Source: Escherichia coli (lineage in GTDB: Bacteria; Pseudomonadota; Gammaproteobacteria; Enterobacterales; Enterobacteriaceae). Taken from it: a stretch of DNA of 64,000 bases. Where the stretch lies: the NCBI RefSeq assembly GCF_046105845.1, contig NZ_CP151004.1; one strand, written 5' to 3'. The position numbers are program-made. Of the stretch, positions 37,501 to 40,500 are shown in pieces (the stretch's first letter is position 1; each line of letters starts with the position of its first letter).

Positions 37501-40500
37501 TTGGTCATGTGCGTTACCCTACGGCTGGCAGCTCCAGCGCCTCTGAAGCGCAGCCGTTTTACGTTAACTCTCCGTATGGCATTACGCTTGCCCACAACGG
37601 CAATCTGACCAACGCTCACGAGTTGCGTAAAAAACTGTTTGAAGAAAAACGCCGCCACATCAACACCACTTCCGACTCGGAAATTCTGCTTAATATCTTC
37701 GCCAGCGAGCTGGACAACTTCCGCCACTACCCGCTGGAAGCCGACAATATTTTCGCCGCCATCGCTGCTACAAACCGCTTAATCCGCGGCGCGTATGCCT
37801 GTGTGGCGATGATTATCGGCCACGGTATGGTTGCTTTCCGCGATCCTAACGGTATTCGTCCGCTCGTACTGGGAAAACGTGATATTGACGAGAACCGCAC
37901 AGAATATATGGTCGCTTCCGAAAGCGTTGCGCTCGATACACTGGGCTTTGATTTCCTGCGTGACGTCGCGCCTGGCGAAGCGATTTACATCACTGAAGAA
38001 GGGCAGTTGTTTACCCGTCAATGTGCTGACAATCCGGTCAGCAATCCGTGCCTGTTTGAGTATGTATACTTTGCTCGCCCGGACTCGTTCATCGACAAAA
38101 TTTCCGTTTACAGCGCGCGTGTGAATATGGGCACGAAGCTGGGCGAGAAAATTGCCCGCGAATGGGAAGATCTGGATATCGACGTGGTGATCCCGATCCC
38201 GGAAACCTCGTGTGATATCGCGCTGGAAATTGCGCGTATTTTGGGCAAACCGTACCGCCAGGGCTTCGTTAAAAACCGCTATGTTGGCCGCACCTTCATC
38301 ATGCCGGGTCAGCAGCTGCGTCGTAAGTCCGTGCGTCGTAAACTGAACGCCAACCGCGCCGAGTTCCGCGATAAAAACGTCCTGCTGGTCGACGACTCCA
38401 TCGTCCGTGGCACCACTTCCGAGCAGATTATCGAGATGGCACGTGAAGCCGGAGCGAAAAAAGTGTACCTCGCTTCTGCGGCACCGGAAATTCGCTTCCC
38501 GAACGTTTACGGTATTGATATGCCGAGCGCTACGGAGCTTATCGCTCACGGGCGTGAAGTAGATGAAATTCGCCAGATCATCGGTGCTGACGGGTTGATT
38601 TTCCAGGATCTGAACGATCTGATCGAAGCCGTTCGCGCTGAAAACCCGGATATCCAGCAGTTTGAATGCTCGGTGTTCAACGGCGTCTACGTCACCAAAG
38701 ATGTTGATCAAAGCTACCTCGATTTCCTTGATACTTTACGTAATGACGACGCCAAAGCCGTGCAACGTCAGAACGAAGTGGAAAATCTCGAAATGCATAA
38801 CGAAGGATGATGCCTTCGCTCAGGGTGCCGGTCTGGCACCCTGACTTGCAACTCCCGCCGAAATCCTGCAAAGTCTGCCTGCAAGTCTGACAGGGCAACT
38901 ATTTATGAAACGACTCATTGTAGGCATCAGCGGTGCCAGCGGCGCGATTTATGGCGTGCGTTTATTACAGGTTCTGCGCGATGTCACAGATATCGAAACG
39001 CATCTGGTAATGAGCCAGGCGGCGCGCCAGACCTTATCTCTTGAAACGGATTTTTCCCTGCGCGAAGTGCAGGCATTAGCCGATGTGACGCACGATGCGC
39101 GCGATATTGCTGCCAGCATATCTTCCGGTTCTTTCCAGACACTGGGGATGGTGATTTTACCCTGTTCAATCAAAACCCTGTCCGGCATTGTCCATAGCTA
39201 TACTGATGGCTTACTGACCCGTGCGGCAGATGTGGTGCTGAAAGAGCGTCGCCCGCTGGTGCTCTGCGTGCGTGAAACACCATTGCACTTAGGCCATCTG
39301 CGTTTAATGACGCAGGCAGCAGAAATCGGTGCGGTGATTATGCCTCCCGTTCCGGCGTTTTATCATCGCCCGCAATCCCTTGATGATGTGATAAATCAGA
39401 CGGTTAACCGTGTACTCGATCAATTCGCCATAACGCTTCCTGAAGATCTCTTTGCCCGCTGGCAGGGCGCATAACCTCATTGTTGCCCTGTTTCAGGGCA
39501 ATTTTGCAACCGCGATCAAATCCTCGACATTTTGTTCCTTTCGATGAATCGAAACGCTGCGATTCAACCGCTATACCTGCTATCTTCAACTTTAGGACAA
39601 TAATGCAACGTCTTATTAACATATTTAACGTTGAATGTTACTGTTGTCGTAAAGATGGCATAAGACCTGCATGAAAGAGCCTGCAAACACACAACACAAT
39701 ACACAACATAAAAAAGCCATTTTCACTTGAGGGTTATGTATGAAGAAGTCGATTCTCGCTCTGTCTTTGTTAGTCGGTCTCTCCGCAGCGGCTTCCAGCT
39801 ATGCGGCGCTACCGGAGACGGTACGTATCGGAACCGATACCACCTATGCGCCGTTCTCATCGAAAGATGCCAAAGGTGACTTTGTTGGCTTTGATATCGA
39901 TCTCGGTAACGAGATGTGCAAACGGATGCAGGTGAAATGTACCTGGGTTGCCAGTGACTTTGACGCGCTGATCCCCTCACTGAAAGCGAAAAAAATCGAC
40001 GCCATTATTTCGTCGCTCTCCATTACCGATAAACGTCAGCAGGAGATTGCTTTCTCCGACAAGTTGTACGCCGCAGATTCTCGTTTGATTGCCGCCAAAG
40101 GTTCGCCGATTCAGCCAACGCTGGATTCACTGAAAGGTAAACATGTGGGTGTGCTGCAGGGATCAACCCAGGAAGCTTACGCTAACGAGACCTGGCGTAG
40201 CAAAGGCGTGGATGTGGTGGCCTATGCCAACCAGGATTTGGTCTATTCCGATCTGGCTGCAGGACGTCTGGATGCCGCACTGCAGGATGAAGTGGCGGCC
40301 AGCGAAGGTTTCCTCAAGCAACCAGCCGGTAAAGAGTTCGCTTTTGCTGGCTCATCAGTGAAAGACAAAAAATACTTCGGTGACGGTACCGGTGTAGGGC
40401 TACGTAAAGATGATGCTGAACTGACGGCGGCGTTTAATAAGGCGCTTGGCGAGCTGCGTCAGGACGGTACCTACGACAAGATGGCGAAAAAGTATTTTGA

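What the first reader, a model, noticed from the sequence alone, without database searches (positions are those of the whole stretch)
39656..39671. Sigma-54 type promoter upstream of argT
TGGCAT-N5-CTGCA has the GG and GC dinucleotides at the canonical -24/-12 spacing, about 70 bp upstream of argT. This fits nitrogen-regulated (NtrC-dependent) expression of the basic amino acid binding protein, whereas hisJ downstream appears to have its own promoter.
Basis: partly seen in the sequence, partly recalled or inferred. Interest (0 to 1): 0.25.

Follow-up and report, generated by a model that had tools for sequence, protein, structure and literature searches.

The report
Known sigma-54 promoter of argT

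Summary
The motif TGGCATAAGACCTGCA is at window 39656-39671 (+), 68 nt before the argT ATG, with GG and GC at the canonical spacing. The window is E. coli ubiX-argT-hisJQMP.

The same 17-mer is a published sigma-54 ChIP-seq site in E. coli K-12 (Bonocora 2015, site OS22). It is also the sigma-54 site of Salmonella argT, listed there as experimentally sigma-54-dependent and NtrC-controlled.

By sequence alone it is unremarkable: 13.2 bits, with about 3.9 equal-or-better hits expected per 64 kb. Conservation settles it. The homologous TGGCA-N7-TGC is the best sigma-54 match upstream of argT in all 80 Enterobacteriaceae loci fetched.

Three refinements:
- The ubiX-argT spacer has no NtrC consensus site. 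The only near-consensus site in the window (40581-40597) lies 0.9 kb downstream in the argT-hisJ spacer, under the strongest published NtrC ChIP peak.
- A sigma-70 start about 32 nt upstream of the sigma-54 start is reported to be repressed by sigma-54.
- hisJ does have its own (sigma-70/ArgR) promoter, plus a decayed sigma-54-like motif.

Verdict: supported, already known, low interest.

The parts
39655..39671 (+). Sigma-54 (RpoN) -24/-12 promoter element of argT: A-TGGCAT-AAGAC-CTGCA, with GG at 39657-58 and GC at 39669-70.
   Evidence: Sequence read. PWM score 13.2 bits. Identical to the K-12 ChIP-seq motif OS22 and to the Salmonella STM2355 site. TGGCA and TGC are invariant in 23 genera with no indel between them. 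It is the second most conserved 16-nt window of the spacer, 0.924 against a mean of 0.744.
39682..39684 (+). Predicted sigma-54 transcription start, taking the C of GC as -12. This gives a 5' UTR of about 58 nt.
   Evidence: Inference from the -12 position. It agrees with the Bonocora rule of 19 nt downstream of the motif centre, which gives 58 nt to argT. It was not mapped here.
39684..39715 (+). C/A-rich stretch of the argT 5' UTR (CAAACACACAACACAATACACAACATAAAAAA), probably the target of the small RNA GcvB.
   Evidence: Sequence. [quoted passage not shown] Assigning the interaction to this exact stretch is my inference.
39740..40522 (+). argT coding sequence (260 aa), the lysine/arginine/ornithine ABC-transporter periplasmic binding protein.
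   Evidence: ORF. RefSeq annotation of a 99.5%-identical strain and of K-12.
39616..39644 (+). Likely sigma-70 promoter upstream of and overlapping the sigma-54 site: -35 TTAACA (39616-21), a 17-nt spacer, and an extended -10 TGtTACTGT (39636-44). The start would be near 39650.
   Evidence: Schaefer 2015 Table S3 places the sigma-54 motif at +6..+22 of a sigma-70 start and reports expression with rpoN at 23% of that without it. Sigma-54 repressed this promoter in vitro. The hexamer assignment is my inference. TT-AC of the -35 is invariant across genera, but the -10 is not conserved.
40581..40597 (.). Near-consensus NtrC binding site TGCACTATCGTGGTGCA (1 mismatch) in the argT-hisJ spacer. Its centre is +907 from the argT sigma-54 start.
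   Evidence: It is the only site with 2 or fewer mismatches in the 64-kb window. It lies inside the strongest local NtrC ChIP-seq peak, 2424941-2425021 at 23.7-fold, which maps to window 40532-40612 (coordinate mapping is mine). NtrC-like sites occur at this position in most of the 80 loci.
40552..40568 (.). Second, weaker NtrC-like site ATGATCATCATGGTGCA. The right half is perfect and the left half is degenerate. Its centre is 29 bp upstream of the main site.
   Evidence: Sequence. Better copies such as TGATCCAATATGGTGCA occur at the homologous place in Enterobacter and others. TGGTGCA is conserved in alignment A3. Inference.
39484..39500 (.). Perfect palindrome TGCCCTGTTTCAGGGCA followed by ATTTT. 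It looks like the ubiX terminator hairpin, and it sits where other genera carry the proximal of two NtrC-like palindromes.
   Evidence: It has 5 mismatches to the NtrC consensus in Escherichia. The homologous 17-mer is TGCGCTGCGGTGGTGCA in K. pneumoniae and TGCGCCCAGATGGTGCA in Raoultella (1-2 mismatches). The distal GCAC-N7-GTGC palindrome present in most genera is absent from Escherichia.
40678..40694 (+). Sigma-54-like motif ATGGCACGATAAGTGTA, 49 nt before the hisJ ATG. It has a good -24 element and a degenerate -12 (TGT instead of TGC).
   Evidence: PWM score 10.9 bits. TGGCAC is invariant in 13 genera. The motif is near-consensus, ATGGCACGATAACTGCA at 16.8 bits, in Citrobacter and Franconibacter. 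No sigma-54 ChIP peak is reported at hisJ in K-12.

Best explanation
This is argTp, the sigma-54 (RpoN)-dependent, NtrC-activated promoter of argT in E. coli.

RNA polymerase carrying sigma-54 binds TGGCAT-N5-CTGCA as a stable closed complex. Under nitrogen limitation, phosphorylated NtrC bound at enhancer sites contacts it by DNA looping and uses ATP hydrolysis to open the promoter. Transcription then starts near 39682 and yields an argT mRNA with a 5' UTR of about 58 nt that is C/A-rich and targeted by GcvB.

When NtrC is inactive, the bound sigma-54 holoenzyme sits just downstream of a weak sigma-70 start and dampens it.

Shown by published experiments on identical sequence:
- sigma-54 occupancy;
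- rpoN dependence (in Salmonella);
- NtrC ChIP signal.

Inferred:
- the exact start;
- which NtrC sites act as the enhancer in E. coli.
For: The motif and its geometry are confirmed.

Published occupancy and regulation:
- The identical 17-mer is K-12 sigma-54 ChIP-seq site OS22 and an RpoN gSELEX peak.
- The same site is bound by sigma-54 in Salmonella. There argT is 3.5-fold rpoN-dependent and is listed among four experimentally shown sigma-54 operons.
- NtrC is named as its activator.
- NtrC ChIP peaks are reported at argT (5.4-fold) and in the argT-hisJ spacer (23.7-fold).
- An argTp-lacZ fusion rises 2.4-fold in a glnK mutant, as expected for NtrC~P control.
- The cloned fragment 39484-39681 was the strongest of 12 sigma-54 promoters tested.

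My own tests:
- The homologous motif is the best PWM hit upstream of argT in all 80 Enterobacteriaceae loci, at -67 to -106 from the ATG.
- TGGCA and TGC are invariant while the flanks drop to 26-61% identity.
Against: - The PWM score alone is not significant at window scale: 3.9 hits are expected.
- EcoCyc listed the E. coli promoter as 'predicted', not 'confirmed', at the time of Bonocora 2015.
- No NtrC consensus site lies in the upstream spacer.
- The NtrC ChIP peak at argT itself is weak and asterisked.
- In non-inducing conditions the presence of rpoN lowers argT expression to 23%. Part of argT expression is therefore sigma-70-driven.
- The high GFP output of the cloned fragment was not shown there to depend on rpoN or ntrC.
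- I could not read the primary Salmonella mapping paper (Schmitz 1988).
Confidence: 0.95

Rival explanations
1. In E. coli the site is mainly a sigma-54 'parking' site that represses an overlapping sigma-70 promoter, rather than a productive promoter.
For: Schaefer 2015 puts the sigma-54 motif at +6..+22 of a sigma-70 start. argT expression with rpoN was 23% of that without it, and sigma-54 reduced sigma-70 initiation in vitro by 10-60%.
Against: The two roles are compatible, so this is an added function rather than an alternative. argT is induced by nitrogen limitation and NtrC in the cited studies. In Salmonella it is rpoN-dependent when an active enhancer-binding protein is supplied. The -10 of the proposed sigma-70 promoter is not conserved, whereas the sigma-54 core is invariant.
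Confidence: 0.04
2. It is a chance match to the sigma-54 consensus with no function.
For: A Markov null gives about 3.9 equal-or-better PWM hits per 64 kb. The top hit in the window (33379-33395) lies inside an ORF and is probably chance.
Against: The core is invariant in 80 loci from more than 20 genera while its flanks vary. Direct sigma-54 occupancy is reported in two species.
Confidence: 0.005
3. It is a genuine sigma-54 promoter, but one activated by an enhancer-binding protein other than NtrC.
For: No NtrC consensus site lies in the upstream spacer. Three strongly conserved upstream blocks have no assigned binding factor.
Against: The literature assigns NtrC. NtrC ChIP signal is reported at argT. 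Most genera carry NtrC-type GCAC-N7-GTGC palindromes upstream. The only near-consensus NtrC site in the window is 0.9 kb away, and to my knowledge NtrC can act over such distances (own knowledge, not tested here).
Confidence: 0.01

Closest known systems
argTp of E. coli K-12 MG1655 (b2310), sigma-54 ChIP-seq site OS22 of Bonocora et al. 2015
   Same: The 17-mer ATGGCATAAGACCTGCA, the distance to argT and the flanking genes are identical. The spacer is about 97% identical, with no difference from 39652 to the ATG.
   Different: There is one A/C polymorphism 5 nt upstream of the motif (39651), and a few SNPs lie further upstream.
argT (argTr) promoter of Salmonella enterica Typhimurium, STM2355
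   Same: The core TGGCATAAGACCTGCATG is identical. It is bound by sigma-54, rpoN-dependent and assigned to NtrC.
   Different: The upstream spacer differs. Salmonella keeps half of the distal palindrome (…AGCGTGCA) that Escherichia lacks.
glnAp2, the archetypal NtrC/sigma-54 promoter
   Same: It works the same way: a -24/-12 element bound as a closed complex and activated by NtrC~P from enhancer sites.
   Different: From my own knowledge, not tested here, glnAp2 has two strong NtrC sites at about -140 and -108. E. coli argTp has none within 3 mismatches of the consensus in its upstream spacer. That geometry is instead found upstream of hisJ, at -145 and -116 from a decayed sigma-54-like motif.

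Membership tests
Sigma-54 (RpoN) -24/-12 promoter | GG and GC dinucleotides separated by exactly 10 nt within TGGCAC-N5-TTGCW | tested here: met
   TGGCAT-AAGAC-CTGCA at 39656-39671. It differs from the consensus at two weakly constrained positions (C to T, T to C).
Sigma-54 (RpoN) -24/-12 promoter | Score within the range of experimentally bound sites | tested here: met
   13.2 bits on a PWM built from 134 ChIP sites with argT left out. This is about the 30th percentile of a training range of 6.9-20.3 bits.
Sigma-54 (RpoN) -24/-12 promoter | Intergenic, co-oriented with a downstream gene and at a plausible distance from it | tested here: met
   The predicted start is 58 nt before the argT ATG. 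Published intergenic sites range from about 18 to 254 nt.
Sigma-54 (RpoN) -24/-12 promoter | Core conserved in orthologous promoters | tested here: met
   It is the best PWM hit at the homologous position in 80 of 80 loci. TGGCA and TGC are invariant in 23 genera.
Sigma-54 (RpoN) -24/-12 promoter | Sigma-54 occupancy in vivo and rpoN-dependent transcription | not testable with these tools
   The literature reports ChIP-seq in K-12, gSELEX, and Salmonella ChIP-chip with a 3.5-fold WT/delta-rpoN ratio. Under non-inducing conditions rpoN lowers expression.
NtrC (Ntr) regulon promoter | NtrC sites (TGCACC-N4-TGGTGCA) about 100-150 bp upstream of the start | tested here: not met
   No site with 3 or fewer mismatches lies in 39475-39655. 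The palindrome at 39484-39500 has 5 mismatches.
NtrC (Ntr) regulon promoter | An NtrC site within looping distance, upstream or downstream | tested here: met
   TGCACTATCGTGGTGCA at 40581-40597 has 1 mismatch and lies +907 from the start. It sits under the 23.7-fold NtrC ChIP peak. Whether it serves argTp is untested.
NtrC (Ntr) regulon promoter | Induction by nitrogen limitation that requires ntrC | not testable with these tools
   The literature supports it. Zimmer 2000 and Schmitz 1988 are known to me but were not readable here.

The most novel reading that the evidence does not exclude
In the Escherichia lineage the ancestral upstream enhancer of argTp has eroded. The distal GCAC-N7-GTGC palindrome is lost and the proximal one survives only as the ubiX terminator hairpin.

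Nitrogen induction of argT would then depend on the NtrC sites 0.9 kb downstream, in the argT-hisJ spacer. That enhancer originally served a sigma-54 promoter of hisJ, which has itself decayed at -12 in Escherichia and Salmonella.

One enhancer would thus act backwards across a whole gene.
Probability: 0.25. Interest if true: 0.35.

Novelty: already known. Interest (0 to 1): 0.08.

Why it matters
It confirms that the scan can recover a real regulatory element from sequence alone, but it adds nothing to what is already in EcoCyc/RegulonDB and the literature.

The only open point of some interest is which NtrC sites serve as the enhancer in E. coli. The upstream spacer lacks consensus sites, and the strong sites lie downstream of the gene.

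Tried and rejected
- NtrC consensus scan of the ubiX-argT spacer at up to 3 mismatches: nothing found.
- Simple sigma-70 scan of 39300-40900: no + strand hit. The sigma-70 elements I give are therefore inferred from Schaefer's coordinates, not found independently.
- Rfam at a permissive E-value over 39300-40900: no RNA family.
- Reitzer & Schneider 2001, guessed as PMC99035: not held.
- Full-text search for 'argTr': only irrelevant hits. I could not read Schmitz 1988, Ames & Nikaido 1985 or Zimmer 2000.
- The window's top PWM hit (33379-33395, TTGGCATTATTTTTGTT) lies inside a 219-aa ORF, lacks GC at -12 and is not a published site. I rejected it as chance.
- The second exact pattern match (59291-59306, minus strand) was not followed up.
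- I considered an IHF site in the conserved block 39605-39621. CAACGTCTTATTA is 2 mismatches from YAANNNNTTGATW by eye, with no tool support, so I left it as speculation.

Full report
**Observation.** The window at 39656-39671 (+) reads TGGCATAAGACCTGCA. GG is at 39657-58 and GC at 39669-70, with 10 nt between them, which is the canonical sigma-54 -24/-12 geometry. The next ORF starts at 39740, so the motif ends 68 nt before it.

The region is E. coli. A 401-nt query matches 5,425 of 5,426 complete E. coli genomes. RefSeq annotation gives the order cvpA-purF-ubiX-argT-hisJ-hisQ-hisM. The observation and the gene assignment are therefore both correct.

**Is it more than chance?** On sequence alone, only weakly.
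- The degenerate pattern TGGCAYN5YTGCW occurs twice in the window against 0.42 expected; 7 of 100 shuffles reached 2.
- I built a PWM from the 134 other sigma-54 ChIP-seq motifs in Bonocora et al. 2015. The argT 17-mer scores 13.2 bits, rank 2 of 127,968 positions and about the 30th percentile of bound sites.
- A first-order Markov null yields 3.9 +/- 1.8 such hits per 64 kb.
- The top-scoring hit in the window (33379-33395) lies inside an ORF and lacks GC at -12.
- What is improbable is the placement. About 0.008 such hits are expected in a 265-nt spacer in the right orientation (my arithmetic).

**Conservation.** I fetched 80 argT loci from Enterobacteriaceae, spanning Escherichia, Citrobacter, Salmonella, Enterobacter, Klebsiella, Raoultella, Kosakonia, Pluralibacter, Franconibacter and others.
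- In all 80, the best PWM hit in the 350 nt upstream of argT is the homologous motif. It lies -67 to -106 from the ATG and scores 11.8-16.6 bits.
- In a 23-genus alignment, TGGCA and TGC are invariant with no indel between them. Position 1, the spacer and the base before TGC all vary.
- The 16-nt motif window is the second most conserved in the spacer: 0.924 against a mean of 0.744. The segments on either side fall to 26-61% and 26-78% identity.

This is a sharp phylogenetic footprint of exactly the bases that sigma-54 reads.

**Published evidence.**
- The identical 17-mer ATGGCATAAGACCTGCA is sigma-54 ChIP-seq site OS22 in E. coli K-12. It has FAT 12 and a predicted start 58 nt before argT, and EcoCyc then listed it as 'predicted'.
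- It is also an RpoN-holoenzyme gSELEX peak.
- In Salmonella Typhimurium, TGGCATAAGACCTGCATG upstream of STM2355 (argT) is bound in ChIP-chip. argT is 3.5-fold higher in wild type than in delta-rpoN when a promiscuous activator is supplied. It is listed among four operons experimentally shown to be sigma-54-dependent.
- NtrC is the assigned activator.
- An argTp-lacZ fusion rises in a glnK mutant, as expected for NtrC~P control.
- A 198-bp fragment, window 39484-39681 by the primer sequences, was the strongest of 12 sigma-54 promoters in a GFP screen.

**The enhancer.**
- No site within 3 mismatches of TGCACCN4TGGTGCA exists in the ubiX-argT spacer.
- The only site in the whole 64-kb window with 2 or fewer mismatches is TGCACTATCGTGGTGCA at 40581-40597. 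It lies in the argT-hisJ spacer, +907 from the argT start.
- After coordinate conversion, this falls inside the strong NtrC ChIP-seq peak that Brown et al. 2014 assigned to hisJQMP (23.7-fold). Their peak at argT is weak (5.4-fold, asterisked) and is centred on the sigma-54 site itself.

Comparative data add a twist.
- Most genera carry an NtrC-type GCAC-N7-GTGC palindrome directly after the ubiX stop. A second palindrome lies about 31 bp downstream of it, near -220 and -190 from the start.
- Escherichia lacks the distal one. Its proximal one is TGCCCTGTTTCAGGGCA (39484-39500), which has 5 mismatches and looks like the ubiX terminator hairpin.

Which sites serve argTp in E. coli is therefore open. 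The candidates are the remote downstream site, the residual palindrome, or NtrC acting without a specific site. The cloned 198-bp fragment is active without the downstream site. However, its dependence on rpoN or ntrC was not shown there, and a sigma-70 promoter is present on it.

**Overlapping sigma-70 promoter.** Schaefer et al. 2015 place the sigma-54 motif at +6..+22 of a sigma-70 start. They report argT expression with rpoN at 23% of that without it, and sigma-54 reduced sigma-70 initiation in vitro. From their coordinates I infer the following:
- -35: TTAACA (39616-21).
- Spacer: 17 nt.
- Extended -10: TGtTACTGT (39636-44).
- Start: near 39650.

The simple scan tool did not call this promoter. 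This is an additional role for the same site, not an alternative explanation.

**hisJ.** The literature describes hisJQMP as transcribed from its own sigma-70 promoter overlapped by ArgR.

I also noticed a sigma-54-like motif, ATGGCACGATAAGTGTA, at 40678-40694 (10.9 bits). The NtrC sites are centred at -116 and -145 from its predicted start.
- TGGCAC is invariant in 13 genera.
- The -12 TGC is intact in Citrobacter, Franconibacter, Pseudocitrobacter and others (up to 16.8 bits).
- It is degenerate in Escherichia (TGT) and in Salmonella (CGC).
- No sigma-54 ChIP peak is reported at hisJ in K-12.

[quoted passage not shown] No Rfam family matches the region.

**Verdict.** The finding is real, correctly interpreted and already known. 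Interest is low. The residual question of which enhancer serves argTp in E. coli is a modest lead, not a discovery.

Noticed in passing
window 40678-40694 (+), with NtrC sites at 40552-40568 and 40581-40597: hisJ is preceded by a sigma-54-like motif, ATGGCACGATAAGTGTA, with NtrC sites centred at -116 and -145 from its predicted start. From memory that resembles glnAp2 geometry. The -24 TGGCAC is invariant in 13 genera. The -12 TGC is intact in Citrobacter, Franconibacter and Pseudocitrobacter (16-17 bits) but decayed in Escherichia (TGT) and Salmonella (CGC). No sigma-54 ChIP peak is reported there in K-12.
   Followed up: partly
window 39484-39500; homologous positions in L009-L082: Most Enterobacteriaceae have two palindromes about 31 bp apart just after ubiX, and the distal one is NtrC-type (GCAC-N7-GTGC). 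Escherichia lacks the distal one. Its proximal one is TGCCCTGTTTCAGGGCA followed by ATTTT, which looks like the ubiX terminator.
   Followed up: partly
window 39505-39533, 39577-39586, 39605-39621: Three blocks of the ubiX-argT spacer are as conserved as the sigma-54 core across 23 genera: GCAACCGCGATCAAATCCTCGACATTT, CTGCTATCTT and GCAACGTCTTATTAACA. No binding factor is assigned. They could be DNA-bending (IHF-like) or regulator sites, and the last one contains the inferred sigma-70 -35.
   Followed up: no
window 40598-40636: AATGCATACTTAAGCATT-TTT-AATGAAAAATAATACGTC looks by eye like two ARG boxes 3 bp apart. The block is conserved across genera. It fits the published ArgR repression of hisJQMP.
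   Followed up: no
L083 2440-2510 (E. coli B27, NZ_AP027424.1): In one of 5,426 complete E. coli genomes, ubiX is not annotated between purF and argT. The sequence from the middle of the palindrome to the -12 element is replaced (…TGCCCTGTTTCAACGTTAATGACCATATAACATGAAAG…), which removes the sigma-54 motif. This could be a real deletion or an assembly artefact.
   Followed up: partly
window 39651: There is an A/C polymorphism 5 nt upstream of TGGCAT. This window and a minority of strains have A, while K-12 and most genomes have C. It lies outside the sigma-54 core, at about +1/+2 of the inferred sigma-70 start.
   Followed up: no
window 33379-33395 (+) and 59291-59306 (-): These are other sigma-54-like matches: TTGGCATTATTTTTGTT (13.8 bits, inside a 219-aa ORF, no GC at -12) and TGGCACCTGATCTGCT. 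Neither corresponds to a published K-12 sigma-54 site in this region.
   Followed up: partly
window about 36481 (cvpA-dedD spacer): Shimada 2021 lists an RpoN gSELEX peak at K-12 2429072, in the cvpA/dedD spacer. No motif among my top 25 PWM hits lies there.
   Followed up: no
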